Source of the DNA: Hormiphora californensis
Lineage: Eukaryota > Animalia > Ctenophora
DNA length: 64,000 bases
Assembly: GCA_020137815.1 (NCBI GenBank)
Contig: CM035351.1
Coordinates: 8,556,001 to 8,620,000 of the forward strand
Direction: 5' to 3'
Below the pieces are notes generated by a model. The model ran no database searches. It was not told where the DNA came from and saw only the letters and a program-made list of their open reading frames with translations. Position numbers and translations under genes: made by a program. Numbering within the stretch: the stretch's first letter is position 1; each line of letters opens with the position of its first letter. Below are positions 9,902 through 56,036 of the stretch, piece by piece.

Positions 9902-10383
9902 TTAAATGTTATTACATGATCATTGATCAACTATTCAAAAGTTTCAAGTTTGTAATCCCTCATCCCCTGACCCATTACCTTCTGAACACGCCGTTACTCA
10001 CTCCGTGTCTACTCCCAATACCCCCTTTCTCTCTAGTCTCTGTACCAAATTCTGCACCACAGTTATTGACCCCCTGGAAGATTACGAAGGTACTGTCACT
10101 ACCCCGTAATTACACACTACCAGCTGTCACTCCGGTCCCCTGGCCCTTTCTTCGGCCCCTTCACCAATTGGCGAGGTGCTACAGATTCGTAGAGGGGAGG
10201 GAGATTTTAGCGTACGGCGCAGTAGGGTAAAGTGTGCCTTTCTGTTATTGTTAGTGTAACACCGCGCACCAGGGCGCTCTTTTTGAACAATGCGCGCACT
10301 AAATGTACAGGGTGTCCGTTTGTTTGTGTGCTTGTCAGGTTGTTTGTATGACACCCTGTAACATCATCACCTCTCATTAGCTG

Positions 10384-13770
<3,387 letters not shown>

Positions 13771-18995: not shown

Positions 18996-19880
18996 GGTCC
19001 ACTACACGCACCACTCCCACATGGGGCCGTAAGGTCCCATGTGGGAACAGGGTTAAATCCCCCGAGCCCGGATCCTGTTGGATCTGAGGGCCCGGAGGGC
19101 CTGCGGAGTAAAGGTAGGTAGAACAATGTACATAGGGGTAAGTTGAACAATGTACATATGGGTTAAAGTAAGGGGAAAATATTTAAAGGGGAATTAAAGC
19201 TCATGGAGACGGAGCATAAGACCTCCTAAACTATCTGGAAAGAAGCCCAACCATCTGGATCGGAGCCTAAGAAGAGACAACTTATCGGGAACAAAACGTC
19301 TGGAACGGAATCTAAGGCAGTCTAATAGCAAGCAGGAACGGGTGAAACGGTAGAATACAAATACAAATATAATACATCTAGTGGGGTTACAGGAGGCTGA
19401 TTACATGTCGAGAACTTTCCGGAGCGTGTTCATCGAGTTGAAGAGTACCGACTTTTGGAGCTGTGAGGGGTAAACTTGGCGGGTTATAGCAGTCAGGTAC
19501 TTCTCCAGTCGGGGGCTGACTCCGCCAAGAGCTCCGATCACGATAGGGATGACCGTGGCCTTTTTAAGATCCCAAATTCGTGTGAGCTCCCTCCGTAGTT
19601 CTTGGTACTTCTCGATCTTCTCCATCTCCCTGTCCGACACTGACCTGTCCTTTGGTACAGCGACATCGATCAGAAGCGCTTCCTTCTTTAGTTTGTCTAG
19701 AAGGACCAAGTCAGGTTTACATGCCTCGATGGGGTTATCCGTCTGAATGTGGAAATCCCAGAGGATCTTGCAGTTCTCATTCTCGAGCACTTTCTCTGCA
19801 TAGTGGCTCCACCACTTTGATTCGGTAGGAAATCCGTGGTCCTTGCATATTCCCCAGTGCAGGGCAGCAGCTACTCGAGG
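18996..19880 (-). mobile_element. 5'-truncated R4/Dong-clade non-LTR retrotransposon (RLE endonuclease + 3' UTR)
   Basis: LHWGICK...ILWDFHIQTD...KPDLVLLDK...IDVAVP...EKIEKYQEL...PIVIGALG; stop at 19401; 3' end abuts a GA/CT tract. Confidence 0.85.
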
Positions 19881-19892
19881 TGGTATAAACGA

Positions 19893-20660
19893 TCTGTCTG
19901 GTCTGTCTGGCGGCCAGACCCCAATTTGATTCAAAGCACGCGACAGTGTGCTCAGAGGGTCGCGGCGCCAGACAGTGTCTGGTAGGAAATGTAGCCAAGT
20001 GGACTCCGTCATGGAGCTCTGCAGAGTTTGATCTTGACCAAGTCGTTGGGCTTCTCTTAGATCTCTGAGAGAACTGAGAAGCCCAAAGCTCGGCCCGATC
20101 TGAGACAGAATAGAACGAGCACCGGTAGATCCATCCTTACTAAGATCTTACGCGTACTCGTAGAATACCTTGAGAGACCCGAAAGCAACACGAGTGCGTT
20201 GGCCACATTGATGCCTGAGTGAGATCGAGGTCGCGCAGCGACCGAGATCGATCTCACTACGAGGCGGGAATAGGTTGCAATGGAGCCAAACGGGTGCGTA
20301 TGTTGTGGGGTCCGGGTGGCGCCTGGTACGGTTACGCTGCAGAGAAATCTGTACCGGAAGGAGTAGGACCGTGGCTGAACTAAATGTAGCATGTTTTAGT
20401 TTTACATTTTGTGAGGTATGTAGTGACTATCAGGAGGGGAATTTCCCATTCCCACCACCCAAGTGTTTGTATAATTATTGTTATATTATTTGACTTTGTA
20501 TTACCATTTCCAGTTAGCGCTATTATGAAACTTGTTTTGCTTTGTTCACCACAATTGGCTATCTCGACTGCCAGAGCATTGGCCTGACCCTATTCTCATT
20601 GCAGTCAGAGCAATGGCCTACCAAATCGTAGCACACTGTGGAAACGAGAAATTAGGGGGC
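19893..20660. repeat. Composite repeat, copy 2 (blocks in permuted order)
   Basis: 19893-20380 matches ~16886-17378; 20381-20660 matches 16597-16868. Confidence 0.88.
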
Positions 20661-34309: not shown

Positions 34310-35103
34310 GACACATTCTCTCTCTTTCTCAAATATGGATCGGGTTTAGCACTCCTAAAAGTTAAAACAATATTTTCTGGAGCACTAGCTACCCTAGAAA
34401 TATTTCTGCTCTGGTACACTGTTTAGACACATGAACATGAATGACAGAACAACAGTTGTTAGAGGGAATCACCCATACTACCTAAATGGTAAATGATGGG
34501 TGAATTTCTCTCTCTCCCCCTTCTCAAACAATGATAAAATGAAGCGCTGGACGAATGACACACAAAATAATATTATTCTACTACTGGACCTATATTTCTT
34601 TCTCTTTCTCTCTCCTGATATGCTGCTGACCAAGCTGGTGTTTAAAAACTCATCAAATGTCAAAATAATTTTCAAGCACCGTTCGTAAAATCAGGGAAAA
34701 TAACAAAGCCAAAAATCAGACAGGGAATATAGTTTTGGTGACCAACTGTATTATAGTTCTGGGTAGGTCGATTTTACGAACAATCGTGCCGAGAATCGTG
34801 CATTAATACAAACCTTAAACACTATGCATAATATCTCTCTCTCCCTTCCTCCCTCCTCTCTCTCTTTGTAAATACATATCTGACATAAATCCCTGGTGGC
34901 ACTTCGTTATTGCAAGTAGAAAACATGAAACAAATTGAATATATACTCGGCGCTATAACTCTTCCCCCTCCTCTCTCCGCTCGATTCACCCTACAAAACT
35001 TATATCTGATCAATCAATGCAGCAGATCACACTCTCTCTCTCCATTAAACCCCGGGGGTAAAGAAGACAGAGAGGGATCTACCTGATATAACATATATCT
35101 CTC

Positions 35104-38100
35104 TCACATATAAATCTCTCTCTTAGTGCTCTGGTGTTCCGGTGACACCATGAATGAGTCCTCAGCAACTTTCAGTCTACTATAGTCCATATCCCTGGGT
35201 GTCAGGGGCTCAGCTGTCCCCCGTTTCTCCTCGTTTGTCTTGTAAACACCCTGTTTTCGTCGTGCAAAGCGGCTGACACCGTACGTAATGACTAGGATGC
35301 AGATGAACCCTGCAACTGCGATGCATAGAATGACAGGGAGTCCCAGGGTTCTCTTGCCACCCTTTACTTGGGTTGAGTTACTACCATCTTTAGTAGCCTC
35401 TGTAGCACTCTCAACAGTGTTCTTATCTGTCTTATAGTGACCCTTATTATCCACCTCGTTATTACCCTTATCAGTTGGTATCTTGGGTGGAACAGTCACC
35501 TGATCTTCCTCGCAACTACCCTCAATTAGCCCCGGGGTCTTCTCCACATTCACCACGTCCAGATCCTCCAGTGGCAGCATCCCATTATACTCGAATCCCT
35601 GGATACACCCGGCCCACTGTTTGTTGTTCACAGAGAAACCGAGGAGGATCTTGAGGATACTACCGAACTCCAGGGTGCCTGATGCCAGGGTGTCTGTCTG
35701 AGTGTCCTGGTCGTCAAATGAGAAGGAGACGGCTCCCTGGCGTCGTTGTAGGGAGAAGGAGTGGGGTAGATCATCGTCAATAGGTCCAGGTGATCGGGCG
35801 GTAATGCTCTTTCCTCCCATTTTCATTGAGAGTTCCAGGTGCTGAAATAGAGAGGAGTGTCAGCGATATCTACTAGAGTATATGTGTAAGAAAGATTAAA
35901 TTTCGGAAACTAAACCACCCCGATCACAGCGTTGGTGTGCTTCTAGGCAACCCTTGCTTGATCCTGTTTGAATAAAAAAGGCTTACCTTATTCTTGATGA
36001 GTAACTTGATGAACTGGTTGGGATCATGTGTTTGGATCTGGGCCAGACCCCCATCTGAACTGGTCGTCTTGAATTTGATATTGAGATCATCCTTAAAGAA
36101 TATCTTCTGGCTGTATACGTTGTAGGAAAGAGAGGCCCCTGGGTTGAATCGTACTGGTCTCATTTCTGAGAAGATAGAAAGTGTTAGTATCGTCATAACA
36201 TTTCAAAATAGGAGAGTAGGTAGCGAAGATATATATCCATGATATCGAAATCATTATAAGTGCCTAGACTATTAATGATCTAGGCGCGACAGATCTCTTA
36301 CAGATCTCTAATCTCTAACTTACCCTCAGAGCATGTTTTTCCCGTGAAAAAAGATCCAGTGCACAGACACTCAAACTCCGTTTCAAACTGTCTGCACGTG
36401 CCCCCATTGTTACAAGGGTACGCAGCACATGTTTCCTCACACCGAGGGTGAACACCCGGTACACCGGTCCCTGCTTGAAGGAGATCCTGTATGACGTCAT
36501 TCACTAGGAGTGCCCTGATACACCCCCTAATGTTGGTGGAGGTGGTCATCATATCGGACATGTCATCAGAGTCACTGGAGTGAGATGTGGGGATACCACC
36601 TACAAATAGGCCACCTGGGGGAGGAGAATGGGAGGGTTAGGGTACTGAAGGAGCAAACAAACTTTAATATTGACCATATCAACCGAGCGCCCCAGTAAAT
36701 GGGTGACTTTGTGACCAAACCAACCTAAAGACCTACCCTCAAAGTTGAAGAATGATTTGTAGAGAGGCTTGCTGATGGCATAACCATCCACCTCGAATAG
36801 TAGGTTGCCACCCTCCTCTATAGAGAGGGCGGTGTTGTGCCATGTGTTATCATTCAGGTTATCGGTTAGTGATGTCATAGATATCAGGTTATCACCTAGG
36901 AGAGGGAGGGAGTGTTGTTAGAATAGTGTTAGTTAGGTTAGGAGAGAGGGAGTTTTGATCAAATACGGAATTGATTTTCAACTCCGAAGTCTGAACTGTT
37001 AAATGCTTTGGTAGTTCTGGGGCAAACCTATTTTTAAGAGTCTGAACTAGTCTATTAGTATGTTGATAACTCACCGATCGCCATTTTGGTCATTAGTCGT
37101 CCCTTGGTGACCTCTATCTGTACATAATCCCCATTGGGACTACCATGGTAAACAAGGACCCCCGAGGTTTCCTTGGTCCTGAAGTCAAAGGAGAGGGTGG
37201 AGGTAGCATTGGTACTCTTCCAGGGTGGGAGCCGGATTGTAGCTGACCGAGAGAACCCTGCTACTTGCTGATCGGGTGTCTCCTGAGAGAGAGAGAGAGA
37301 GGGGGATTTTAATATGTGTTGTCGGGGGTTACATTGTTCACAGCGCGAACACAGTACCAGGCGACTCAAGGGGCGGACAGGTAAACTATAAAGAACCCCA
37401 TACCAAGAATCATGGCGGTATACTAAAGCACTGTGTAATCGTCCCCTAAATACCTGGAATTTGCAGCCAGCCCTGGCAGTGTTGACTATCATGGGGTTAC
37501 TCTCTGTATCAGATGATATCAGCTCTCCATTTAGTATGACCTGTTGCATGCACCCGTCATACTCAGTACGGGATTTAGTGAGACGTCGGACATTCCTCCA
37601 TTCATCAGAGGGTGCCCCTCCTAGGTAGACGTATTGGAACAGGAACTCAACTGCAGCTCCCTAGGTGTGCAATGAGGGGTTAGTATTGAGGGGTGTAACT
37701 AAAGTAAGGGAATAACAGGAATTATTTTGTATTGACAACAGCAGTTTATAACTATGTGTGTAAGTAAGTAGTAAGTAGTGTGTAAGTATGTAAGTCATTG
37801 TGTAACTATATGTAAGTCACTAACCCGGATGGTGTATTTCACTTCGTTAGCGTCCAGGGACAGTGTCACACTGTTCTCCTCTCGTTTAAAGGTAACCACA
37901 TGCCACCTCCCATCAGCTACCTCGCTATCCATCCGGAATGATTTGGACTGCCCGAAATTCAGGAACACGAAGAGTTGCCCCCCGAGAACCTCGAAATACA
38001 GGTATTCACTGTTCAGGCGGTAGTCCGTGGTGATAAACAGGAGCATGCCTTGTTCAGATTGGGTTCGGAATCGGAATGAGATTTCGTCACTCGGCTGCAG

Positions 38101-41100
38101 GGAAACAATTGGAATTAGGAAATGAGTTATATTAACATGGGCGTAAAATTCTTTGAGAATATCAAATTAGTTGCCATGGTTACTTACGGATGCAGAGGGG
38201 AAGGTAACATAGTAACGGAGGTACTGTTGGGAGGAGAATGTCAGGGATGGAGATTCCTCCGAACAAACCTCTCCTTCGTAGCCAGTACCGGTACAGTCAC
38301 ATGTGAAACTGTTCATTGCCTGCAAATGATGGGAGGTGAATTAGGGATGCTGCATTACCATAGCAACAACTAACACTCAGAGTAACAAGTCCTATATCTC
38401 TTACCTGGTGACAAGTAGATCCATGGTAGCAGGGCTGAATACCACATGCCTCATCCAGACTACTGCACCCAGCCACCACCCCCGCAGGACGGGATGCCAA
38501 CTTGGTATACAGATCCTGGATCTCCTGTTCAATAGAGAATCCCTGGATACAACCTCTGAATCCCTCCTTCATTGTGTCAGAGGACCCCGCGCCCAGGAAG
38601 AATGCCGTCTTGATACCCAGGTCACCCGGGGAGGAGAATGTGGTCTTGTCAGTCCCCATTTTACCAGTATCTCCATACAGGGTTATATCAATACCCCTCT
38701 CGTCATATCGGACATTACAGGAGTACCACTTGGAATCTGCCAGGTAATCACGCACTGCTACCTCGTACACTTGGCCATCTGAAGAGGGGGGTATTATTAT
38801 TATATTGGCAGGGACGAGAAAGGGGGGTTGTATTCATATTTTATATGATCAGGGATTCAGAGTGTTTGTGATAAAATACGCACCTTTCCGTGCGGCAAAG
38901 AACAGTGATCCATCCCTCAGTTCCAGTTCAAGATAGTTACCAGAGTTACCCCCAGCGTAGGCAATGACTCCGTTAGGGTTACTTGTCTTGAACTGGAGGG
39001 TAACCTCCCTGTTAACCATCCAGGTATCCAGGGTCAGGTGGGATTCGGAGGAGCCAAACATCACCGGAATATACCTGTAATTGGGGGTAATTAGCTGGAC
39101 AAATTGTATGTCATGATGACAGTTCAATAGTTGTTGACAAGTTCGGCTTTTCCTATTTGTCAGCAGCTACAATTACCCCTAGTCCCCCCTTATTAGTGAG
39201 TGTGATTAGGTTAGTAGGACACTGTGATCTCTACAATTGTGGTGAAAGGAGCTACTCTATTGTGTTGCTTCAGAAGCGTGTAGACAATTTATTAAGCTAC
39301 CCTGAGGCAATGACCTAGCCACCACTTTTTAAAGCTCTCTCCCCCGCCACTCCCCTACATATTTACAGCACAACGTCACAACACACACATAACCTCATTG
39401 GGACACAACTTGTACAGTACTCCCCCTTCTATAACACCCACAATTGTAACATACATTCGTGGAGCATAATACCTCAAAAACACCCTAAAATACCCCTATA
39501 AACTCCCCTGTGAACACTGAACACCCCTATCCAACAATATCTCTACTCACTGTATCTCAGAGCAAGTCCAGTCCAGTCTGCCGTGTTTGGTATACCCCAC
39601 AATATCACTCTTCGCCTCCTTCAGCATTGGAACCTTATTGAATGTCAACTGCTGGATGCACCCCACGAAGTTTAACTTGCTCCGGACCCCCTCCATTTCA
39701 AGAAGGTTCTCACCCCCTCCAATGTAGATATCCCGGTTGTATCGGACTGCCACGGGATTATGGAGAGATGTGGACACCTGCCGGCCATCCACTTCCATAC
39801 TGAGGTCAGCCTCGTACCGGCCTATATGGACCTCATGCCACTCGTTGTCACCTGGTTGGGAGAGGGGACGATTAGAGGGTGGTGTTGTATCTACCTAGTT
39901 GTTATTTAGAGAGGTGATGCCATGCTAAGTTATATCTACAATCCTATAATGTGAAGGATGTATATATAAGAGGGGGCGGGAATGTTGCGGCAGTTCCTAT
40001 AGCAGATCTGTTTGTATGCAGCCCGGTGTTTTACCTGCACTACCTAATACATACATGGTGGGAAACTGGGAAGGTATAAATTCAGGGGGAGACTGGGCGG
40101 GTTGCATAAAGGGGCAATATAGGGCTCCGATAAGAAACAGAGTATTTTGTGGAGGGGTACAATTCGTTTAGACATGTTTAAAATTATCTACAACAACCCT
40201 CCTAAATACTTACTGATAAGTGTATTTTCAAGTTGGAGCAACTGTTGTCGGCTCCCAAAGCCCACATTGACGCTCAGTAAACTGGAGATAACTTCAACCG
40301 ACATGAAGTAGTTGTCTGTCTTGTAGTAGAATATCAGGCCATCTGACTTGGACGTCTGGGAAATTAGAAAGGGTGTCAATTTTTGGAATCACGCTGAAGC
40401 CGGAAGTCGATTTTGTGATACTCTGTATTTCAAATTGGTGAATTTATAGTTATAGTCCCTGGAAAATTGAATGGAACATGAAATTGGTGGGAAATAGTTA
40501 TTTCCCGGTATTCCAGAACTAAATAATGGAAAGAAGAGCGTGGGAATAGCCCTGGCCCCCTATTCATGTTTTCTTTTCTTTTCATATCACCGCTCTTCGC
40601 CATCGGTACATGCTTTGAAAAAAAAGGGAAAAGGAAAGCCGAAAAGTACTGATTCAAAGTACTGATAATATATGTGAAGTGGTACTGAAACAACAAGAAT
40701 ATACTTGTGGAGTATGGACTTCTTGGCCATGTAAGTTGCAAAATTAAGGGCGGAAAATTTGATCGGTAAATCTTCCAAAACGCGGATCGACATCGTGTTT
40801 CAAAGATCTCCATCGTGTTTCAACTTACCCTGAATCGGAAGACTAAGGTATCGAATTTGGAGTAAGGTGCATCATCGACCGCTCTGTATTTGATATACTC
40901 GCTAGCTTGGAACTTGGCAACTGCGGCAGCTGAAGGGGGGAGGACCAGGGGTTAGCAAACTTGGAAACAGGAGTCTAGGGGTTACTAATTGGGGAATTAT
41001 TAGTGGTGAAATAGTGAACGGTTTCAAATTGTTCCTATATCATTCAGTGATCCAAATATAATGTCTCACAACACACACAACTTCCCGTACCATATCTGTG

Positions 41101-42344
41101 ATGGGTATAAACAAGGGACAGGGCTGGTGTGATGCAATAGGAGATGGTGAAACACAGGAAACAGAGAAAGGAATTCATGAAATGGCTACAAAACTGTCAG
41201 AGCTGTGTCAGAAAACTAGATATCATGTGTATGAGCTGCTGCAACACGGGTAGTAACAAGATATATTGACCAATCAGGAGCCATGCATGCAGTCACGTGA
41301 CATACCAGGACCAGGGAGAGAGGGCAATAAACTAGATTACATGACCTTTAGATCTGTAACAGTATGACATACGATACACGCATTCTTGACACGCATGGAA
41401 CTCATGTACCAATGTCCAACTACCGGTCTAGCACACTTTGATGGGAACACATGAACAAAAGCTGCAACATGAACAACCTAATTCTAAATTCACTTTCTAC
41501 TTGTGGTTTTACTTTCTCGGCCGAAAATAAAACACTATGGTGCTGCTGCAATGACCTTACAATTACTCTACAAATACCACTTATTGTGATTAATAAGTAA
41601 CAACCCAACCCAACTGTTACAACTGTTCTGGTAAAATATTCCCAGGCTATTTTGGGTGGCCGAGCTGCTATTTGGTAAAGGGAATCTGGAGCTACTGTTA
41701 TTATAATGGAAGCCCACAAAATATTAGTTAGGGAGGAGAACTAGAATAGAGCTGTATGTTTGGTTGGGGGAACGAAAATAGAAAAATAGTAGCATGTTGC
41801 TTCTCTCTATCTCTCTCGCTAGCAGATTATTAATGGACGTGTTATAGTCTCAACTGTTAATTCAGGGTCACAACCACGGCACTGCTATAGAACTGCTGCC
41901 AGCGCTTAATTTAGCAATTTTTTAATCGCACTACAGCTACCCGTCGAAATTGATTAAACCGGCGGTTTAATTTCGCAGTAACCACAAAATACATAAGAAT
42001 GGAGGCAGAAGAGGAGAAAACCCCAACTGACAGGGAGAGGACCACCTTGTGGGAATTTGTCACTCTGACAGGCCCCCCTCTCTCTCTCTTTCTAAGCAAA
42101 CACCCAAGCTGTTATTATGGGTACGAAGACAGGGGAAACATGAAACCAGCCGAGCGAGACATACACCGTGCATGGGAAAGTGGAAGGGAGATGGAGAGAT
42201 AAGATCAGTCTGCTAGCATGTTTTAACGGTTCCTGTGAGTCATGGACCAGAACAGAGGTTGCAACAAAATATACGGAACCGAATATCGACAAAAATATTG
42301 CTAATCAATCTGGCAGCGTTAACAGGTAAACAATATGTCATAGT

Positions 42345-42416
<72 letters not shown>

Positions 42417-45400
42417 AGAGAGAGAGAGAGAGAGAGAAGAGAGAGGAGACAGAGAAGAGAAATAGAGAGATAGCATGATCAGATAGTTGGACTAGAGACC
42501 ATGATGACAGGATTGCAAATAGAACTTTCTGTCACAATGTGAAACACAGGGGGATACAAACTGGGCACAGGGAGGGAAAGAAAGGCTATTCGTCGGAGCG
42601 GAGAAACAAAATACAGAAGGCTGGAGAGATTGAACGGGTGTAACAAAGTTAGACGGTGTAAATTGGCCGTGTTTGAAACAAAACGTTCCAAAGGATTTAT
42701 CAGGGTCACGGTCTACCCTATCTTTATCTCCCTCCCATTCACTCCACCGTGGAGTCCACGCCTCACATCACATGTAGCCCCCTACTCATGCAGGGTGCAA
42801 CTGCACGCCCCAATTGGTAGAATCATGTGGTACTGCACGCCCCAATTGGTAGAATCATGTGCTACTGCAGCACGCCCCAATTGAGCCCACCCAGTATCAA
42901 GTGCTATCTGCATACACCCCCAATTGGACCGAGCGGGATCATGCAGTATCCTAATTAGAAATCTCTCTCTCTCTCTGGGTGTTTTTAAATCAGTGGAGAA
43001 AGATGTGTACCCGGATACGATCTTACATGAAACCACTACTTTTAATTGGGTGTATGTGTGTGTTTCCTAGTTTCCCCTTTCACAAACACTTACTTGATCA
43101 AGTGCAAGATACCCTGATGTACGCGGGGACGCGTGCAGAGGAACCGGAATAGCCACTTCCCTTTCCAGAGAATGATCTCATCATTCCTGCCCGTTCCCTT
43201 GGTTACAATCGCGTGAGTCTGTTTCGTCGACCGACGATTATTTCTTGGTTTACAAGTCTAAATTCTTCGTCTTATTATCATGGATAACGTTGCGGGGAAG
43301 AATATATGGTCGTGAGGACGATGATTTTGTCGTCCCAAACATGTAATAGAATGGAGAAACGACGATATTTTGGACGCGGCCGCGTCCAAAATATCGCGGT
43401 ACATACCATGACCTGGAGCGTGGAGGAATGCGCTTGTGGAAACAATGGGCCAGAAAAAGTACTTAAGGAAGCTCTGGAGCAGAGTTGTCAGTTCTCAGAT
43501 TACCAGCCTAGCCTTCGTTGCTCTCCAGCCTTGCTCTGATCTACATGGAATCTCTACCTGGAACCTCTGCCCGAACTATGCTTGACATTGATAGTGTCGA
43601 CAGGCTTCACTCGATCTTCCCCCTTCTCTCAGTTTAGTAAGATATATAATATACGTAGTACTAGGTAGAATGAGTAGTCGAGTAGATATGTTACAGTCGT
43701 TACGTGGCATTGTAAGACGTGAGTGATACATTATCGTTCTGACCCCATAATATAGATGTGTTTGTTTTGGTCTACTCTTGGTCTACGGTTGCACTTAGTC
43801 ACCCTGGTTAGTGCATTATATCTGAGCTATTATCTAGTGGTACGACAGTTGGGTGTGTATTATTAGGAGCTACACCTTTATATTGCGTACACTGACACAA
43901 TATCCCAGAGGTATCATGATCAGTAAATCTTGGAGCATGAAATCATTTATTACCCCAAGATTTCATTGCAATGATACTGAACAACTGTGACTTACGTGCA
44001 CACTGTGCCAGGAGTGGAGGTGAGCCATCTGGAGTGGAAAGGAGCGAGGAGAGAAGTATTACACAAGGGAACATTGCAATATGATATTCCTGCTGTGCAT
44101 ACTATTAGTTAATATGAGACTCCCTTCTCTCTCTCTGAATCTCGCTCCTCACTCCTCTTTGGCCTTTATCTATCTCTCTCACTACTCACAATCATTTTCT
44201 CACTAATTTTATCTCTGTCTCAGTCTCTCTCGCTCTCTGCTCTCATCATCATTAGACTATCAGAAAGCGAGCTACCGAAATACCGAAAAGAGGTCCTGCT
44301 ACGCAAGAGGGAGCCCACCAAGTCCTACATATGACTGTCATGTGATATGTCTCGAATATAGGACAGTTTCAAATACGGGGTTATGAGATTAGAGTATATA
44401 TGCCTCAAGTCAGAGGGTGTGGATAAGAGAGGGGAAGAAAATCGGAATTGTCCTATCTGTACCAGGTTGTTAAAAACATAAATACTTCTTCAGACCATGC
44501 AACCTGGAATTGCCTTTAATCCAATAACTGCCATACTACTTGGCATGAGGGAGGGGGACATACCGATAACGGAGGACTTGGAAACAGATGAATTCGATGA
44601 GGAGACAGTTGTTGAAGACACAGCCGGAGAGATGGGGGTTGGGCATGAGGGGGACTAATTTGGTACAGACGAGCGCTGACATTACCTTACTTCGTCAGCT
44701 GAGATGGGGCGGGATAACCACCGTACCAGGAAGTATACGACAGCTATTATGCTATCACCTACTGGGGTAATATGATGTCCAGACTGTCTACATATATAAT
44801 TCAATATCCCTGGGGCACAATACCCCTTGAGGACCGAGAAGTCTCTACCCTGACACCTTTCTCCGGGTAGACCAGTCATATGATGTCGGTTTTGGACCGA
44901 AAAAAAACATAATTGATCTAAATGTGATTCCACTTCTAGGGCACTCCAATAGGTCCCTAGAACCACCAAAAAAATTTGTCACTCTTCATCAAATGAATAA
45001 ATGTGGTTTTTGGGCCACGCCCTTATACCTGTATTTTCAGTCATGTGGTCAAAACTGAAAACCATCTTAGGAAACGAGTAGAGAAGAAATCAAGGGCACT
45101 AAAGTGTGTAGCGTCCTCGCATTAGTGGGGGTAGGTGCCGGAATTAAGTCTCTATCTCATCTGGTTAATTAGATAATTGGATAATTAGGTATGCGCATAA
45201 CCGTTTTTTGGCTATATGGCTATAGCCACTTATAAATGGTTTAGAGACTTTTCACTGGTGCCATTTTGTAGGCAATGGCCAAGTTATGGGGGGTCGACGT
45301 CGGACTTTTAAGCTCTATCTCCAACCGTTTAGCCGTTATTTGGCTTTTAAGGTGCTGAAAATGAGCAAAAAACGGGAAAAAGCCCGATTTTTACTCATTT

Positions 45401-47530
45401 TCAGCACCTTTGAATCGAAATAACGGCTAAACGGTTGGAGATAGAGCTTAAAAGTCCGACGTCGACCCCCCATAACTTGGCCATTGCCTACAAAATGGCA
45501 CCAGTGAAAAGTCTCTAAACCATTTATAAGTGGCTATAGCCATATAGCCAAAAAACGGTTATGCGCATACCTAATTATCCAATTATCTAATTAACCAGAT
45601 GAGATAGAGACTTAATTCCGGCACCTACCCCCACTAATGCGAGGACGCTACACACTTTAGTGCCCTTGATTTCTTCTCTACTCGTTTCCTAAGATGGTTT
45701 TCAGTTTTGACCACATGACTGAAAATACAGGTATAAGGGCGTGGCCCAAAAACCACATTTATTCATTTGATGAAGAGTGACAAATTTTTTTGGTGGTTCT
45801 AGGGACCTATTGGAGTGCCCTAGAAGTGGAATCACATTTAGATCAATTATGTTCCCTATCATGCATCATATGACTGGTCTAGGGACCCCCTCCTCTCTTT
45901 CTCCGGGGAATATTGTGTGGGTGGTTGAGATGGCTCCACTAAGGGGGACCCGTTAAAAAGGGAGGGTGCTTGTGTTTTGAGTATTTAACAAGCACACCTA
46001 CACCTTGTGTAGTGCAGTGGTTCTTGTGTTTTGTGCTTGTCACCGGTCACACTCCCCCGCTCTTGGCCAGTGTGCTTACCGGTGTATGGCGCGCACTGAC
46101 CGAGTGCTGACAAAGGGTGACCACAGTTGGATATGGCCGCGCGCTACTGCAGACAATTGTAACAACAAGGGATTCTCTGGAGGAGCTGGGAGGACGCGGC
46201 CACCTGTTGACCTCTCTCTCGAGGTGCTACAACATACAAAGTGAGTGTGAGGTGTGTGTGTAGAATAGAGCGAGAGGAGAGTTCAGAATAGCGTGAAATG
46301 GAGTTAGGTTCCCTCTGAGAGAGTGTGATGTGTTCAACTCTCAGGCTTGTTAGAATAGCTTACAAGAATGAAGAATTGGACTAGCTTGTTTTCAAATTTT
46401 GTGCATTGTCATTCACGATCACTACTAAAACATCTTCCTCCCCTGCTATACCCTGGTCACATGGACTCTACAGGGGGGCTAGTGAAGGGGGGGGGGTCAC
46501 TGTCTGCTATAGCTCATAGTGAGCTAGTGTGGCGGAGGGAGGAAAACCTCTCTCCAATCAGAGGGTACCCAGGGTGGTCAGGTGACTTCCCCTCCGCCAA
46601 CGTGGAGCCGGTGGTAGGTCACGTGACCGGTGTTAACCAATGAAAACCCAGGAAACAATAATCACGTGTTACTACGCTACCAATGGCGGGGGGCAAGGAA
46701 GTAGCGACCAGGGAATGTGTATGTGTGTGTGTGGGGTGCGATACCTTCCCGGGTAGAGAGAGAGGGAGAGAGAGAGAGAGTGGGAGAGAAAAGAGAGTGC
46801 AGTAGAGAGAGAGAAAGAGCGGAAATTCAAAACGACCAACTGTACACAATACAAGCCGGTATGTATACCCCGAGACCCACCCCCAATCTAACAACAAGGG
46901 AGGGAGAAAAGAAAGAATGTATATTTATTGAAACTATCCTGCAGCAGTCTGCAGATCATGATACGAGTCCAGACCGTTTAGAACTCTATCTCAGTAGGGA
47001 GAGTTGCCGGTTTAGAGGTTCTTTGTGTATATGAGGTCAGTGGGCTTGTCTACTTGCCGATATGTGTGTTAGGGAGAGAGAGAGACCAAAATGTAAAGAA
47101 AGGAAGGGAGATAGAAGGGGATAAAGAGATGAAGATACGTAAATACATTGCCTATTCTATGTGGTAGGGACCGCCCCTATATATCACCACCTCCCTCCCT
47201 CAGACACCTCTCTCCGATCACTAGAAAGGGACCGCTCTCTCCTCATCATCATCATTTCTTTGTAATGATAGAGAATGATAGTATCTGTAGTACTTGTGCA
47301 TTTGCACCACTCATGTGACGAATACCTGGCCTCCCTATTGGTCAAGCAAGGTCACGTGATATGTCATAGCGAGTGCTGATTGGCTCGTGAGATAGCGTCC
47401 TCCCCGTCTCTCATTAGGTGGATTAGCTTCGGTCTAATATCTAAATTGCTACTTGACAAGTTTGCCAGTGTCTCGTGAAAGTGAGTGAGAGAGGGAGAGA
47501 GAGAAAGAGAGAGAGAGAAAGAGAGAGGGA

Positions 47531-47601
<71 letters not shown>

Positions 47602-50558
47602 ACAAACATAGAAAGCTTTGATAGAGTGGAAGTGAGTCTTGGGGGTGTTCCACTGTCGTAAGGGAGGTGGGAGAATAGAGAGGAGAGAGTGAATACAGGG
47701 AGGGTGAGAGAGGGTGAGAGAAAGAGAAAGTGAGAGAGAGGAAATACAAGAGTGAGAAAAGATGTAAGAGCGAATCTAGGCTAACAGCTGTCTCTCAAGC
47801 TGTACAGATTGGATTAAACTTGAACACACACATACCCAATCATTTTAGACAAATTGATCAATCATAATAATGATTTCCCAAGACCCCACGACCCCCCTGC
47901 TGCTAGGCCGGCCACCTTGAGTGGGAAGACCGCCTTAGTGGCGCTATGGGAAGTGACCAACAGACCACATGATTTCACCGATCTAAAAATGTCCCCACCA
48001 CTACTGCAGCTGTCTTTAGGCGTGGTTTCTACTCCTCCCCTCTCTCTCTGTCTCCCTATAACAGAGTTAGGGATTGGGAACCAGGTACTCAGTAGCAGGA
48101 AATACAGGGAACCACAGAACCCAGCCCTGTCTTGGGAAAACCACAGATTTGGGATTCCAATCTCCCACAAAATGTGCCATTGAGTAGTCTCCCCATTTCA
48201 TCTTTTTGTGGGGATAAAATTCTCGGGATTCAAAATTCTTGATGAGGTGAAATGTGAGAAGGACTATTGGGGTTTATCTGTAGGATCAGTTTCAATTCGT
48301 GTGTGGCGCTGCAGGGTGGGTCAAGGGGGGGGGGGGGGCGTGTGTACTGTGTACGTTAGTCTGGGCCCCACGAAAGGGCCCCCTGTCGAACGGAGGAAAA
48401 GAGGGGGGAGAGAGAGAAAAGAGGGGAGGGAGAGGAAAGAGAGAAAAAAAGAGAGAGATGGGGGTGTTTGTTTTTGGGTTAAAAGCCAAAACAGGGTGCT
48501 GCTTTTTAAAGTTTCACTCCTTTTGTCCAAATGTTTTCCCCTCTTTCCTATTTAACCTTCCTCGCCGCTCCCTCCCCGACCCGAGATTAGTATCTCACTT
48601 ATTGTGTTTTACTAGTAACACACCCAACAAAAACACACACAATGAGATCTCTGTTTGCAGACAGCTCATTGTGCCGTACTACAGACAGCGCCCTGTATGG
48701 GGGTTTTTTGAAGGGGGACAGTACAATAAAAGACAGTCAAATGTGTCAACGCTGCACCTTCCCTTTCTCGTAATTTTATCTTTTTCTCACCAATTTTACA
48801 TACAAAAATCCCAGCATGCGGGGAAACCCCAAGGCTTACGTGCACACTTTCTTGCTCAGTGCAGAATTTGGGTGTGGATGTGGCTAGTATAATATAGCTG
48901 AGTTGCAGGGTGTGCCAATTTGAATCAAAAGTCAAATATGTCGGGGGAGGGGGGAGAGAAAAAAAAAAAAAAAAAAGGAAAAGGGGAAAATGAATGGTGT
49001 GAGGGGGACCCGGGGGGTGAAGAGAGGGGGGAGCGGGGAAAAGAAAAAAGTAGTGAGAGATAGAGAGAGGAGAGAGAGAAAGAGAGAGAGAGAGGAAGAG
49101 AAAAGGAAAGGGAGGAGAGGGATGGGGGGGAGAGAGGGGAGAGGAGGAGAGAGAGGGAGGGGGGAGAAGAAGAAAGAAAGTGAGAGAGTAAGGATATGCT
49201 AAGAGGGTAGACGACAGCTAAAGAGGGGGGTTCATGGTGCTGCAGACTCCACGTGAACATCAGGAAACTCCAGACACCCCCCGCTGCAGAGTGCAGCACT
49301 ACCCAACTGTTCCCACACACACAGATTAGCTGCTCTTGGGGAGGGGGGGGTAAAATTAGGATTTGGCCCCACAAGTGGGAGAGAGGAGGGGATAGAAGCA
49401 TGGTTGGTAATTGTTGTAAACACCCACACACACACGTCACCACCTGATACATGAGTGCTGAGAGGAACAAGTGTACAAGGGAGGAGCCGCCTTAAAGACT
49501 TGTTATAGAAATTGATTCCTGTCAACTAGAACTGTTCTGACTTGTGGCGGCGGTGGTTTTGGAAATGGAATTGTTAGAGGAAGGGTTCTTTGTAATTCAA
49601 TGAACCTTGTTGGATGTTCGAAGAGACAGGCTGACATGTGTTCCCATGTGGCTTGGGGTGTTAGAAAAAAAAATTCCAAATAGGGGGTGGAGTGGTGGAA
49701 AAAAATCGGGCGAGATCTCAGGTTCCGGGGAGAAGAGTGAGGGTAACCCCGGCTGGCGTTCAGAGACTTCGTACTCGATCATATCGATTCTATTCACCCT
49801 CTCTCTCCCTCTTTATCTCTCCTCTCTCTCCATCAGCCCTCTCCCTTATCAAAAGAAGGCATATACAGCACGAGCTGTGGTTATGCGTATAATACTCCTA
49901 GCCGATGGTGCACATGTTTATATGCACTAGACTGCATGTGAGGTGAGGGGACTGTGTGTACTTGAGGTTAGCTATCTTCAAATGTATGAGAGAGAGGGGT
50001 GTGAAATGACGGAATACTTTGTAGTGACATCATTGATAAATCAGGATGAAGTTCCAGGTGGCCTTGTACCATAATTTAGAGTGAGATATACAAAGATCAT
50101 TGTTTCTGAACCGCAGTGTTTCATTCTAACCCAGATGTCACAAAATTACATTACACCTCAGTATATTACATGATACTCCCCCCTCAAGTCCCCCAAGACA
50201 CTGTTTACACGAGACAGATTCTCGTTCTCTCTCTCCCCAGACCCCATCACCCCTCTCTCTCTCTCTCTCTATCTCCCTCTTCTATCTTATTCTCTCTCAT
50301 TCTCGCCCAGCAAAGTACCGCCCCCGTCTAATTGGAAACTGATAGCGTCCTTGTAGGTACCTGTGACAGACTGTTTAGGGGCCGTCAGACACGCTCCTGC
50401 TACTGCTACTAGAAAAGTTTCGAATGAGCTAGGAGGGTGAAGCGAAGAGGGGAATCTGAGGGAGCAGGGAGAAAAGTTTGCACCGAGGTGTGAAACGAAT
50501 GTTTGCTCTGCATACACGCGGAGAGAAAACGATCAAAGGAGAGAGGGAGAAAGAAAGG

Positions 50559-50596
<38 letters not shown>

Positions 50597-50797
50597 AGAA
50601 AGGGAGAGAGAGAAATAGAGACATGTTAGGTTTTGTTATACACGTGGTGGGGGTTGTATACACATGTACCGCTGCTAGCAATGTAGTGTATACCAAGCCA
50701 CCAAATTGGCAATTCCGCCTCCCATAACGAGGTTTACGGTCCCCTCCCTCATTCTCTCACTTTCTCTCTTTTCTTCTCTCACTTTCTCACTTTCTCT

Positions 50798-50832
<35 letters not shown>

Positions 50833-50942
50833 TTCTCTCTTCTTCTCTCTCATCTCTCTCTCCCAGGCCAGGCTACGGTCCAAGAGAGTACTTTCTAGGG
50901 AGACAAGATGGGGGAGGGACAAAAGAAAACCGGTGAGCGAGG

Positions 50943-50980
<38 letters not shown>

Positions 50981-51560
50981 GGGAAGCTAGGGGAGACATA
51001 TTATGTGCGAATATTACCTTCCTGCTCAGGGGGGAGCACATTTGTCCCATCCCTGGTTTAATGATTACCTTGGCAGGTCCCCCCGCTGTCTATCCACCGA
51101 ATAAATACCTCCCCTCTCTCCAATAAAATATGTCCAATAAATATATGTCTCGCCTTTGCTGACAATCGGATAAATTCGCCCCCAACTCCCGTCTAAAACA
51201 TAGATTATATTATCTCACTCAAATAAACATATATTTCAAAAGAGCCACTTGTTTTAGTAGATACAAGTCATTAGCCTGAGTAGAACCACCACCACCATCC
51301 ATATTGTTGTATCACTACACTGAACATGCCCCCACTATACGGACTACCAGCATGCCCCGGGATATTTCTAATTAGAAAGTGGCAGTGGGCCAAGATCAAC
51401 CGATAACAACGGTCACTTCTGCATACCTTACACAATCCTAAACGTCGTGTATTATTAAACCGTTACAATGTTTATCAGGAATGTTTCAGGAACATGGAAG
51501 AGAATTGGAGTCAGTGGGCCGTGAAGGTGTGCCCCCGGGTAATGCAGCATATCGGGGGGG

Positions 51561-51638
<78 letters not shown>

Positions 51639-53074
51639 CGGTGAACGGATAAGATCAATGTTGTTTGTGTAGTAACTGAAGAAAACCCGTTTACCGGATT
51701 CCAAGCACATTCTATTTCTCTTTCTCTCCCTCCCTCTCTCTCCCTATATCTCTCTGGCTGTCACTTTCCGAAAACCTTTCGTCCAATAATTTAAAGATAC
51801 CTATCTCACTCCCACACACTCTCTCCCACTCACTAAAACTGTATAAAACTGTGTCTAGACTTGACTGAAAAATATCTCACTTTATGTCGGTAGGTTCAAA
51901 GCGAGTGAGTTCAGTTATACCTGAATCAGTACACAAACGAGATATCACTACCCCCTTCTATCTTTCTCTATCTCCCTTCTATCTCTTTCTCTATATCCCT
52001 TCTATCTTTCTATCTTGTTAAAAGTAAGCAGCTATTGTTCTAGCACGTCAATGACGCAGTGATACAAAACAGTAGATTGGAACTTGCGGTTATTGAACAC
52101 TCACGAGGTCGTATTATCATCGTAATTAATTTTTCAACAAGAAAATTTAGAACCTAAATACCAGACAGAAGCCTAAGTTTTTCTACCTCTCAACCCAGAC
52201 ACCGCATAAAAGCAGAATATTTTCTTTTTATAGCTATCAGCACCCACAGCAAGTGAAGGGTGTGGATAATAAGTTTTCAACCAGACCAGATTACAACACA
52301 ACCTACAAAAGACACATCTGAATACCCAAAACGATCATTGGCCAACAAAGTAAAACCCAAAGGAGACAAGTATTAGGCTACAACAAGAGAAGGTCCCCAC
52401 ACAAAAGACCGAAACATATGTTTCTGCGTAACACCGTGGGAATACTTGAATATCGTGCTGACGATATATTCATTATTTCGTTCTCTCTATCTCTCTATCT
52501 CTATCTCTCTCTTTCTCTCTCTCTCTTACTCATACAGTGCTACTGAGCTATTCTCGCTTGCTTGATTACCCTCAATCTTTCCCTCTCTCCCTCCTCTCTC
52601 TCCATGATTTTACTCAAACTCCGTCGTGTGTGTACGTTTTAATGTCAACAAAATCCGCATAATATGCCCCGTATCTTGCTCTCTTTTTCTCTCAGTTGCT
52701 CTGGATCACTGAACGTTTGATTCCATCTCCCAGTGGTAGAATTATTGCTAGTGAGATAGATAGAGATGAGAAGGAGAGATAGAGATGATAAAGAGAGAGC
52801 AAGCTGTTCTCGACAAGCATCTCGCAACACTCGCGTTCTTTCGGCGGCCTACTTCAAAGGGGGGAGGCCTATTGCTCTCTCGCACTATTTTGTTGTAAGA
52901 CTCCTCTCTCCGTCTCTCTCTCTTTTTTTCCTGTTTCTGAACTCGCCCCTCCTCCTACTGATCCTTCTCCAAGCCATGAGCCACAGTCTCGAGAGAAGAC
53001 ATGGGCAGACGTACACACTAGAGCTCCATCGCAGGAACTTTGAAATCTGCCGCATAGAGAGTGGAGAGAGAGAG

Positions 53075-53110
<36 letters not shown>

Positions 53111-56036
53111 GGGTGAGAGAGAGAGAGAGGAAGGGTGAGAGAGGGAGAGAGGAAGGGTGAGAGAGGAAGGGTGAGAGAGAGAGAGAGTCAATTGAGGTCA
53201 CAAAGATTCCGCTTGGTTCTCAAGTCGGGGGATTACAAGATCACAGAGATCTACTTCGGACCACATCAGAAATTGTCATCTAATTGCTTGTAATCACAAA
53301 CTCCGATCGCCCCCCTTTCAGGGTGAGAGAGGTCTGTGGGACAAATAGTGTTTGAAAAAGAGAGAGAGAGCAACAAGCCGGGTCTCCACAAGCAGAAGAA
53401 GCCCGGAGGGTAATGAAGTTGCTGTCAAGGATTTATTAGGTAGTGTTGCAGTTGGTTGATCTTATTAACCCTCGTACCCCTCCCTCAGGCAGCTGTCATA
53501 CATCCAATACTAAACGAGGTCTCGTGTACCGGTGAGGTCTCGTGTACCAGGGAGAGGGTGGAGATATGGTAGACAGAGGAAGGGATGGTCAACCATGAAA
53601 ATGACAAGAAGTCACTTGTCATATGGAGAGAGAGAGAGCATATATGTGTAATGATGAATCCTCCTGAGGATAGCATATATATGATATTGCCTTCTCCCCC
53701 TCCATGACGTATTCTATATTGCTCACCTCGGTTATAGTAAGCCCAGAGTTGAGACAGAGGTTATATTTGTGGGGTGGTTTCGGGGCGACGGTGGGACAGA
53801 CAACATGGTTTTGTAGTTTACTGACAGGGTCAAGAGACTCCATTTGAAAGAGGAGGCGAGACGGAGTAGTGGAAAGATGGTTGAGACAGGAGCGAGAAAG
53901 TGAGACAGGAGTAGAAGGGGTTGGCGTGTCTGCTTTATATTGCGGGACGAGGGGAGCATCGGGGAGGGAGGGAGTAAGAGAGAGGGAAAGAGAGGGAAAG
54001 AGAGGGAGAGACTATGTGAGAGAGGGAGAAAGAGAGAGAAGATGTAGTGTGTATAAGTGGCGGTTGAAATCATGCAGAAAGCCATTAGGGGCTTAATGGA
54101 ATTCCCTCTCTCTCGCGTATGATACCATTGAAACAAAAATCGATATATCACAGGGAGCTGAGGGTGAAAGAAAGGGAATAAAAATGGGTGAAAGGAGGAC
54201 TAAAATATAAATTGTGGGGGGACTGGGATGGGGTTGTAATTGGTACGACGTTTCATGTTTCTATAGTGACCAGATCCCGACCTGATATTCCTGCTACTAT
54301 TTCTTGGTCGTGTATTTACAGACGAGTAGTACATAGAGCTGCTCATGATCCCGCAAGTACTTTACTCTCTCTGTCTCTCTCACTAACTCTTTCTCTCTTT
54401 CTCTCTTTCTCTCTTCCACTCTCTCAACTTGTTTCAGTAAGCTAAAGTTACAAAATCCGCTCCACTAATCAGCGCAGACGAGGGAGGTCACGTGATCGGG
54501 CCGGTGTGGTTAGGGGACCAATACAGAGCCACCCGAGGTACACATCTGATCTGCAAACTACCCTTACTGATGACACTAACTGAGCAGCAGGATCAGACAC
54601 ATCCCTTTCTATCTCTTTCCCTCTCTCTTTCTATCTTTCTCTCTCCCTGTCTCAAACCCGTCCCAACCTTGATTCCAATTCTTGCAGAGAAATATGATAG
54701 ATCATCCGATCACGATGGGCCTAACGTCGTGCGTGTATTGTATTCCAATGCAATGATAATATGAATTACGAATATGAAATATGAAAATGATAGCCTCCTC
54801 TTGGGATAAATATGGAGCTGAGAACTTACTAGCACATTAAAATGACAGAGGTTTTTCAATACCCTATTGTCCATCCCAGCAGCCCTTGAATTATAGTAAT
54901 CCATCAAAAAGTTACACGCCCCCAGTCTACCTCGTGTGCCGTAGCATTACCCGACATGTGAATGAAGCTAGGGCCATGTGAGTGAAGCTGGGGAAATACA
55001 GTGAGGGAAAGGGATAGTAAAGATGGGGTAGTTAGCAAGGGATCGGAGTAAGAGATTGAGAGTAAATTCCGAACATAGCACTAACTGCTCCTCTCCTTAC
55101 ACTGCCTATTGAGGAATAATCGAGCACAGAGAGGAGTTATAATAGTGGAGATGAGCTTTGGAATCCACTGCATACTAACTAATACACACACACATTCCCT
55201 CCCCCACACACACATTGAATGGAGCTTAATGGAATGTGAGATATTATCAAGTTTAACAAGTGGGTGTGAGAGATAATATTAAGTTTAACAAGTACTAACC
55301 TGTTGTGCACTTGGTTCCACTGTACCCAGTCCCGGCACACTCACACTCCATCCCATCCTCAAGACTCAGGCAGGTTCCCCCGTTCCTACAGGACTCCCCT
55401 TGGGAAACTTGATCACACTTCACTTGTCCACAGCCATCAGCAGTTCCCTGTTCCTCGACTATCATGTTCGAAGCAAACCGCTCACTATCCCCACGGCGGG
55501 TGCTCTGGAAATTCCGGATACACCCAGTAAATCGGGGCTCCAGGGCCAGATCAGGTTCGACGAGAGTTTCTGTGTTGTAGGTGCTCACTCCCCCGATATA
55601 ACTGTTACTGGTTAGGATGAGGGTGCTGTCAGCTGCCCCGATATCAAAACTTTGCTCTTTGTTCCAGTTATCGTCAAGGTATACCACCATTCTGCTGGGG
55701 AAGACTTGGACCCGAATCTTGTGAAACTGTCCATCAGACAGACCCGATCCGATATCGAATGATACCCGGCCACTGCCAAAGTCCGTTTGTACGAATGATC
55801 CGCTCGTTGGCCAGTTGGATTTTCAGGAAGTCACTGGATCCCGGTCCGCCATCAGAGTAGTACAAGAGGGCGTTTTTAGAAAACGTCTTAAATTGCATCA
55901 TCATGATTCCCTGGCTGTCGAGAGCCCAGGAGCGATATTTAGCGAATGTGTTCTGCCCATAGTAGAATGTCCTATCTTGAGATATGGCAGCGAGGGTTCC
56001 GGAAGCCGCTAAAAGCGTCAACAGCAACAAAATCAT
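35104..56036 (-). CDS. NRXN: Alpha-neurexin (exons 56036-55300, 40929-40829, 40355-40214, 39851-39551, 39074-38884, 38778-38405, 38319-38188, 38094-37825, 37660-37454, 37282-37075, 36895-36737, 36614-36324, 36165-35987, 35841-35104)
   Basis: Signal peptide, three LamG-EGF-LamG modules, S/T stalk, TM helix, 4.1-binding-like RRKQGVYKTNE, class II PDZ tail KREIYM. Every junction is GT-AG and phase-consistent. One extra base near 55796. Confidence 0.93.
41091..41178 (-). CDS. Alternative first coding exon of neurexin (signal peptide)
   Basis: MNSFLCFLCFTISYCITPALS-LVYTHHRY, then a phase-1 G|GTACGG donor 161 nt from the phase-1 LamG2 acceptor. Confidence 0.65.
41268..41301. promoter_or_regulatory. 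CCAAT box plus palindromic E-box GTCACGTGAC, putative internal promoter
   Basis: Lies 90-125 bp upstream of the alternative ATG at 41178. Confidence 0.45.
42800..42930. repeat. Short tandem repeat of GCACGCCCCAATTGGTAGAATCATG
   Basis: Two full and two partial units, each with CCAATTG. Confidence 0.75.
43407..43412 (-). other. Candidate 6-nt neurexin microexon
   Basis: Pyrimidine-rich ...cattcctccacgctccag|GTCATG|gtatgt; frame-preserving. Confidence 0.35.
43996..44028 (-). other. Candidate 33-nt neurexin cassette exon (DGSPPLLAQCA)
   Basis: cttctctcctcgctcctttccactccag|...GTGCAC|gtaagt; open in phase 1. Confidence 0.5.
44868..45881. mobile_element. ~1-kb foldback element in neurexin intron 1
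   Basis: ~470-bp near-perfect inverted arms around a short spacer near 45380. Confidence 0.88.

What the first reader, a model, noticed from the sequence alone, without database searches (positions are those of the whole stretch)
41091..41301. Beta-neurexin-like internal first exon at a non-canonical position (before LamG2)
An 88-nt exon encodes a signal-peptide-like sequence (hydrophobic core, A-L-S cleavage motif). It ends in the same phase as exon 1 and lies 161 nt from the LamG2 acceptor, with a CCAAT box and E-box just upstream. It predicts a 5-LamG/2-EGF neurexin lacking LamG1-EGF1 and bypassing the 14-kb intron. Vertebrate beta isoforms start before LamG6 and gamma isoforms after it, so this would be an independently evolved dual-promoter neurexin system.
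Basis: partly seen in the sequence, partly recalled or inferred. Interest (0 to 1): 0.85.

Follow-up and report, generated by a model that had tools for sequence, protein, structure and literature searches.

The report
Comb jelly neurexin with three starts
The long first intron of a comb jelly's neurexin gene (a nerve-cell adhesion protein) holds two small exons that likely act as alternative starts, matching shortened neurexins already listed in databases for two other comb jellies, so these early-branching animals probably evolved their own short neurexin forms, which papers had credited only to bilaterian animals.

Summary
The 88-nt exon is there as described (minus strand, ATG 41178, GT donor after 41091, 161 nt from the LamG2 acceptor). 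The gene is the single alpha-neurexin of a pleurobrachiid ctenophore, nearly identical to Hormiphora californensis neurexin. The window holds a counterpart of each: the reported exon matches type B, and a second, overlooked 79-nt exon (44074-43996, strong donor) matches type A. Each ranks first among 120 intronic candidates, and both together arose in 0 of 150 simulated introns. So the gene probably has three starts, not two. Not shown: RNA across either junction in this species, a start site, a cleaved signal peptide, or whether a promoter or spliced-leader trans-splicing makes the 5' end. Exon B's donor is weak. No paper describing these isoforms was found; one states that short neurexin variants emerged only in bilaterians. 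The scan's earlier notes hold nothing on this.

The parts
41091..41178 (-). Internal first coding exon, type B (the finding): 88 nt, signal-like peptide, phase-1 donor ATG|GTACGG (weak)
   Evidence: best match of 120 intronic candidates to Bolinopsis X3 / Mnemiopsis 1134-aa N-termini; RNA junction not seen
43996..44074 (-).
   Evidence: donor among the top 3 of 822 GTs; best match of 120 candidates to Bolinopsis X2 / Mnemiopsis 1137-aa N-termini, only candidate ending Cys-Ala plus junction Pro; RNA junction not seen
41292..41301 (.). Perfect palindromic E-box GTCACGTGAC, 114 nt upstream of the exon B ATG; candidate promoter element
   Evidence: 6 matches at up to 1 mismatch, 1.1 expected; 5 of the 6 lie in intron 1
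41268..41277 (+). Extended CCAAT box (GACCAATCAG), 14 nt from the E-box; candidate promoter element
   Evidence: the NF-Y-type consensus used is recalled
41186..41250 (-). AG acceptors ahead of exon B (first exon bases 41238, 41235, 41202, 41193, 41185) and a 9-codon upstream ORF at 41226-41197 that the three nearest acceptors would cut away: candidate trans-splice or UTR-intron sites
   Evidence: sequence; acceptor scores are modest (81st-92nd percentile of intronic AGs)
40829..40929 (-). Shared acceptor exon, start of LamG2; joined by exon 1, exon A or exon B
   Evidence: same junction in all six lobate isoforms and in the H. californensis transcript-derived protein
55300..56036 (-). Exon 1 coding part: signal peptide, LamG1, EGF1 of the full-length alpha form; one-base frameshift near 55793 in this assembly
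   Evidence: the published H. californensis protein is open across this place
40930..55299 (-). Intron 1 (14,370 nt) holding exons A and B and at least four E-box plus CCAAT clusters
35104..40355 (-). Exons 3-14: rest of LamG2 to LamG6, EGF2, EGF3, stalk, transmembrane helix and tail
   Evidence: five introns confirmed by RNA contigs of runs X1 and X2

Best explanation
The exon at 41178-41091 is likely one of two conserved internal first exons (the other at 44074-43996) of the ctenophore alpha-neurexin gene, each predicted to be transcribed from its own start inside intron 1 and spliced onto the LamG2 exon to give a membrane neurexin lacking LamG1 and EGF1. Shown: both exons exist, are in phase with the shared acceptor and give open 1126-aa and 1123-aa models; two other ctenophores have annotated proteins of this build with two distinct N-termini. 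Inferred: transcription starts a little downstream of the E-box and CCAAT pair; the 5' end may then receive the spliced leader at one of the AGs just before the ATG, which would remove a short upstream ORF; the hydrophobic peptide is cleaved, leaving about ten residues ahead of LamG2. Inferred function: the isoform is the LamG2-LamG6 core without the loosely tethered LamG1-EGF1 unit, so it would lose LamG1 partners and expose LamG2, and separate starts would let different cell types choose the form, as the internal promoter does for beta-neurexins.
For: Bolinopsis X1/X2/X3 (1344, 1137, 1135 aa) and Mnemiopsis 1341, 1137 and 1134 aa records; the four short ones diverge from the long ones exactly at the LamG2 junction and fall into two N-terminal types shared by both species; Pfam counts 6 LamG in the 2 long and 5 in the 4 short proteins. 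In the window, of 120 ATG-to-phase-1-GT candidates, exon B ranks first against type B (15.5; best other ATG 6.0) and exon A first against type A (16.0; next 15.5); each scores below zero against the other type. The junction residue agrees (Ala for B, Pro for A), as do the last exon residues (Tyr; Cys-Ala). Controls: 0 of 62 signal-like candidates outside the intron reach either score; in 150 simulated introns an A-like exon arose 0 times, a B-like one 2 times, both 0 times. The nearest upstream AGs give 95, 103 or 112 nt, none a multiple of three, so B is not an in-frame cassette. The E-box plus CCAAT pair is expected 0.005 times per 64 kb. In vertebrate alpha-neurexin LNS1-EGF1 is flexibly tethered to an LNS2-LNS6 body (PMC3084293, passages).
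Against: Similarity of the window exons to the lobate N-termini is weak: shuffle p 0.019 and 0.037 for B, 0.0006 and 0.0016 for A; without the signal-peptide filter 5 of 1014 control candidates reach each score, about 0.6 expected among 120. Thresholds were set after seeing the candidates. Exon B's donor scores 2.2, at the bottom of the gene's 13 real donors (leave-one-out 2.2-11.7). Exon A's hydrophobic stretch is short. The E-box plus CCAAT module recurs at 46554-46641, 47337-47385 and 54487-54522, so it may mark intronic enhancers, which are common in ctenophores (PMC12221973, passages), and not a start. The lobate isoforms are automatic annotations whose genomic exons and read support I could not see.
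Confidence: 0.7

Rival explanations
1. The short isoforms are real but have no promoters of their own: the spliced leader is trans-spliced onto internal acceptors of the long pre-mRNA, turning exons A and B into first exons after transcription.
For: At least 56% of H. californensis Iso-Seq reads carry the leader (PMC8527503, passages). AGs lie 7, 15 and 24 nt before the B ATG, 15 and 18 nt before the A ATG and 20 nt before the exon 1 ATG. Alternative trans-splicing makes short transcripts in C. elegans sma-9 (PMC2904332, abstract).
Against: Those AGs score below most of the gene's 13 cis acceptors; a rare E-box plus CCAAT pair sits at promoter distance from exon B. A leader on the 5' end is equally compatible with an internal promoter plus a short outron.
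Confidence: 0.13
2. The short isoforms are real in ctenophores, but in this species only exon A is used; the reported exon B is a decayed or chance frame, and any true type B exon lies elsewhere or is lost.
For: Weak donor (146 of 822 GTs as good); low similarity to type B; B-like exons arose in 2 to 4 of 150 simulated introns depending on the criteria.
Confidence: 0.13
3. All the short forms are annotation artefacts (truncated transcripts extended to a nearby ATG) and the window exons are chance frames.
For: All four lobate records are automatic predictions; published ctenophore neurexins used in two papers are full length; P. bachei's own record is a truncated model.
Against: Two species carry the same two N-terminal types with conserved sequence, both hydrophobic, both in phase at one junction, which intronic run-ons would not give; a third, distant species has a counterpart of each.
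Confidence: 0.04

Closest known systems
Bolinopsis microptera neurexin-1-like isoforms X2 and X3 (XP_063694627.1; XP_063694628.1 and 629.1) and Mnemiopsis leidyi KAL5257004.1 and KAL5257005.1
   Same: Same gene, same junction at the start of LamG2, five LamG domains, own hydrophobic N-terminus, two types. Window models are 55-56% identical to them (611 of 1108 and 616 of 1102 aligned residues).
   Different: They are unremarked automatic annotations; the N-terminal exons have diverged strongly from the window's; no record of the short forms for Hormiphora or Pleurobrachia was found in three protein searches, one profile-free HMMER search and two cluster look-ups.
Vertebrate beta-neurexins (internal promoter of NRXN1-3)
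   Same: An internal first exon with its own signal sequence spliced into the alpha transcript, sharing the membrane anchor and tail (PMC12665717 and PMC10084454, passages).
   Different: Beta keeps one LNS domain (LNS6); this keeps five. Different intron, no sequence relation tested or expected, two such exons in one intron, promoter unproven.
Gamma-neurexin (vertebrate Nrxn1; short forms of C. elegans nrx-1 and Drosophila)
   Same: Short product of the alpha gene from an internal start.
   Different: Gamma has no LNS domain (PMC11294457 section 6).
Cnidarian and placozoan alpha-like neurexins with four or five LNS domains; cnidarian delta- and epsilon-neurexins
   Same: Shortened neurexin ectodomains in non-bilaterians (PMC11294457 section 6).
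   Different: Encoded by separate genes, not alternative starts of one gene; which LNS domains they lack is in a supplementary figure I could not see.
Unnamed neurexin P0248 (assembled from a public run, 1295 aa)
   Same: Hydrophobic N-terminus followed directly by LNS2; aligns to a fish alpha-neurexin from residue 254.
   Different: Bilaterian-type tail; single record; organism unknown; cannot tell isoform from paralogue. It shows the architecture is not unique to ctenophores.

Membership tests
Alpha-neurexin (host gene) | Signal peptide, three LamG-EGF-LamG repeats, one transmembrane helix, short tail | tested here: met
   Pfam hits on window exons; tblastn of Bolinopsis X1 across 14 exons; 6 LamG in the orthologues; 887 of 909 residues identical to P. 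bachei neurexin
Beta-neurexin | Own first exon with a signal sequence, spliced in frame into the alpha transcript | tested here: inconclusive
   In frame and signal-like by heuristic; annotated so in two relatives; junction not seen in RNA of this species; SignalP not available
Beta-neurexin | Enters just before LNS6, so the ectodomain has a single LNS domain | tested here: not met
   Enters before LamG2; five LamG remain
Beta-neurexin | Transcribed from an independent internal promoter | not testable with these tools
   Only motifs; needs CAGE, ATAC or H3K4me3
Gamma-neurexin | No LNS domain | tested here: not met
   Five LamG domains
Cnidarian delta/epsilon-neurexin | Short neurexin encoded by a separate gene | tested here: not met
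   Exons lie inside intron 1 of the alpha gene and share exons 2-14
Ctenophore LamG2-start isoforms (types A and B) | Phase-1 exon in intron 1 with hydrophobic N-terminus and type-specific end (Tyr then Ala; Cys-Ala then Pro) | tested here: met
Ctenophore LamG2-start isoforms (types A and B) | Expressed as a spliced RNA in this species | tested here: inconclusive
   The 3 runs laid gave no cover of exon B or of the junction, and the two same-species-like runs did not cover the LamG2 exons either; exon A lay outside the stretch laid

The most novel reading that the evidence does not exclude
[quoted passage not shown] This would be a third, separate route to short neurexins beside bilaterian beta/gamma promoters and cnidarian delta genes, and would explain why gene-level single-cell data show ctenophore neurexin as broadly expressed.
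Probability: 0.3. Interest if true: 0.85.

Novelty: new variant of a known kind. Interest (0 to 1): 0.62.

Why it matters
Whether ctenophore synapses share an origin with those of other animals is an open question, and neurexin is one of its test genes. The current picture is one full-length alpha-neurexin in ctenophores, broadly expressed, with short variants arising only in bilaterians (PMC11294457 section 6; echoed in PMC12665717). Two conserved internal first exons change that and give isoform-specific probes: one can now ask whether type A or B marks neurons while the long form is epithelial. The isoform also equals the LNS2-LNS6 core seen in structural work on vertebrate alpha-neurexin.

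Tried and rejected
RNA: the one run search returned 3 runs, 2 with small shares (0.06, 0.05). Laid on 35050-41950, all as contigs: X1 and X2 (95-99% alike in 9 of 11 records) confirm five downstream introns, but apart from one short X1 piece at 41792 they show no depth above the bin ending at 38976; X3 is a more distant relative (12 of 13 records under 90% alike). No depth over exon B and no joint from 41091; tables of loose ends and pieces were cut (8 and 15 rows not shown). This is no evidence either way. Short matches of X1 and X3 near 41792-41820 lie on GA-rich sequence; the ATG at 41795 stops after 23 codons with no phase-1 donor, so I did not take it as an exon. JGI metagenomes: 295 pattern matches to the LamG2 exon peptide, 0 confirmed. 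No whole genome is held for the window. A search with a window LamG2 exon among longer proteins gave 1 hit, a laminin-like protein. The HMMER search of 50%-identity representatives gave only short ctenophore-like fragments, none seen to include the junction (11 of 150 hits read in full). Of 117 non-ctenophore neurexins, 1 starts late (a beetle model beginning at EGF1, no signal-like start); of 24 neurexin-like proteins, 2 have a hydrophobic start directly before an internal LNS domain. In-frame cassette reading of exon B rejected on phase. My first exon model had three boundaries off by one or two bases, corrected. The bacterial promoter scan is irrelevant to an animal. No leader-gene-like sequence in the window. 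Literature: five searches on neurexin isoforms listed no paper on these isoforms; the library lacks most subscription journals, and Supplementary Fig. 1 of PMC11294457 (domain drawings) was in a file that could not be read, so a drawing of a short ctenophore form there is not excluded.

Full report
What is there. On the minus strand the window holds a 14-exon neurexin gene from 56036 to 35104. Its last exon is 94% identical to Pleurobrachia bachei neurexin and the model matches that record at 887 of 909 residues. The transcript-derived Hormiphora californensis neurexin in a supplement of PMC11405698 (files 5 and 16, search hits only) is closer still by eye: its first exon peptide equals the window's, and at five places I compared the window sides with it against P. 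bachei. The organism is thus a pleurobrachiid ctenophore, H. californensis or very near. That record is open across a one-base frameshift that exon 1 has in this assembly near 55793, so the shift is probably an assembly error, and it shows the exon 1 to LamG2 junction.

The observation. The 88-nt exon, its phase-1 donor, the 161-nt gap to the acceptor, the E-box and the CCAAT box are all as stated. Taken alone it is unremarkable: intron 1 has 120 ATG-to-phase-1-GT candidates from 54 ATGs, 5 of those ATGs give a signal-like peptide by my heuristic, and this donor is weak, with 146 of 822 GTs scoring as high.

Relatives decide it. The protein clusters of the two lobate hits contain a long and two short forms in each species: Bolinopsis microptera X1, X2, X3 (1344, 1137, 1135 aa) and Mnemiopsis leidyi 1341, 1137 and 1134 aa (7 of 7 and 9 of 10 members read). 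All four short forms leave the long form exactly at the start of LamG2 and carry one of two hydrophobic N-termini shared by both species: type A ends Glu-Cys-Ala with Pro at the junction, type B ends Ile-Glu-Tyr with Ala at the junction. Pfam finds six LamG in the long and five in the short forms. The junction lies where fish alpha-neurexin LNS2 begins (residue 258). That RefSeq isoform models usually rest on RNA alignments is my recollection; one Mnemiopsis chromosome-level annotation built its isoforms from RNA-seq with PASA (PMC11797021, passages), but I could not tie these records to that paper.

Two exons, not one. The second has one of the three best donors of 822 in the intron, is the only candidate with such a donor and the only one ending Cys-Ala plus Pro. 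Both splice to open models of 1126 and 1123 aa, 55-56% identical to their lobate counterparts. The similarity is weak in itself: 5 of 1014 control candidates reach each score. With the signal-peptide filter 0 of 62 controls do, and in 150 simulated introns an A-like exon with such a donor arose 0 times, a B-like one 2 times, both 0 times (by similarity alone 3 and 4 times); thresholds were set after the fact.

How it most likely works. Inferred: a start just downstream of the E-box and CCAAT pair (41301-41268; this pair is expected 0.005 times per 64 kb, pattern defined after seeing it) makes a transcript of about 6 kb instead of 21 kb; exon B splices to 40929; the signal-like peptide is cut after about residue 19-21; the product is a type I membrane protein LamG2-LamG3-EGF2-LamG4-LamG5-EGF3-LamG6. 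In vertebrate alpha-neurexin, LNS1-EGF1 hangs flexibly from the LNS2-LNS6 body (PMC3084293, passages), LNS1 binds some alpha-specific partners (PMC12665717, passages) and LNS2 binds latrophilin and dystroglycan (PMC11294457 section 6); the short form would drop the former and keep the latter. The promoter is the least secure step. The same motif pair recurs at three more places in intron 1, and 69% of looped enhancers in Mnemiopsis are intronic (PMC12221973, passages). At least 56% of H. californensis long reads carry a trans-spliced leader (PMC8527503, passages), AGs sit just before all three ATGs, and a 9-codon upstream ORF at 41226 would be removed by a leader joined at the nearest three. 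A promoter with a short outron, or leader splicing from the long pre-mRNA, both fit. An in-frame cassette does not fit those three nearest AGs (95, 103, 112 nt); the two farther ones were not checked for phase.

What RNA showed. Three contig-only runs were laid. They confirm five downstream introns but do not cover exon B or its junction, and the two close runs do not cover the LamG2 exons at all; exon A lay outside the stretch. Expression of either exon in this species stays open.

Against what is known. It works like beta-neurexin (internal first exon with its own signal sequence) but is not one: beta enters before LNS6. It is not gamma, nor a cnidarian delta or epsilon gene. PMC11294457 (section 6 read whole, supplements searched, one picture file unread) gives ctenophores a single six-LNS alpha form and places short variants in bilaterians only; PMC12665717 repeats this. 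Five searches listed no description of the LamG2-start forms. They are, however, already in databases as automatic isoforms, and the architecture is not unique: one unnamed assembled neurexin with a bilaterian-type tail also starts with a hydrophobic peptide before LNS2 (P0248), and a Tubulanus model does so before LNS4. None of 117 other neurexins did. Independent origin in ctenophores is therefore likely but untested.

Verdict. Observation confirmed. A real, conserved short isoform system with two internal first exons: about 0.85 that the isoforms are real in ctenophores and exon B is one of them or its direct counterpart, 0.7 for the full reading with internal starts. New variant of a known kind; interest 0.62.

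Noticed in passing
window 55790-55800 (minus strand): One-base frameshift in exon 1 (LamG1) of the neurexin gene as assembled; the published H. californensis protein is open here, so probably an assembly error.
   Followed up: partly
window 44906-45376 and 45383-45853: 471-nt arms, 99% complementary, 6 nt apart, inside intron 1: a foldback element or an assembly artefact.
   Followed up: no
window 46554-46668, 47337-47385, 54487-54522: Further E-box plus CCAAT clusters in intron 1; 5 of the window's 6 matches to the 10-base E-box lie in this intron. Candidate enhancers or extra promoters.
   Followed up: partly
window 46080 and 43094 (minus strand): The two best-scoring donors of intron 1; 46080 lies about 470 nt downstream of a motif cluster and upstream of exon A, 43094 between exons A and B. 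Possible non-coding leader exons.
   Followed up: no
window 40922-40921 (minus strand): A second AG nine bases into the LamG2 exon would keep the frame and drop three residues, near the place of vertebrate splice site 1 (recalled).
   Followed up: no
window 41724-41820 (minus strand): GA-rich stretch then ATG 41795 with a 23-codon frame; short RNA contig matches from X1 and X3 end here with unrelated loose ends. Probably low-complexity matches.
   Followed up: partly
PMC11294457 supplements 4 and 5 versus P0013: The domain that paper aligns as ctenophore LNS2 is the third LamG by position in the full-length proteins.
   Followed up: no
window 35104-35125 (minus strand): The tail ends KREIYM (lobates KRELYM), resembling the KE[W/Y]YV motif of other neurexins, although PMC11294457 calls the PDZ motif absent in ctenophores.
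   Followed up: no
proteins P0248 and P0265: Neurexins with a hydrophobic start directly before LNS2 (unnamed) or LNS4 (Tubulanus polymorphus model): possible further internal-start isoforms or paralogues in other phyla.
   Followed up: partly
window 7960-8346 (+), 10362-10907 (+), 11190-12191 (+), 19401-20147 (-): Other frames seen: a C2H2 zinc-finger run, an alpha/beta-hydrolase-like exon, a 333-aa frame like a retroelement ORF1 and a reverse-transcriptase-element endonuclease-like fragment; labels are recalled, not searched.
   Followed up: no
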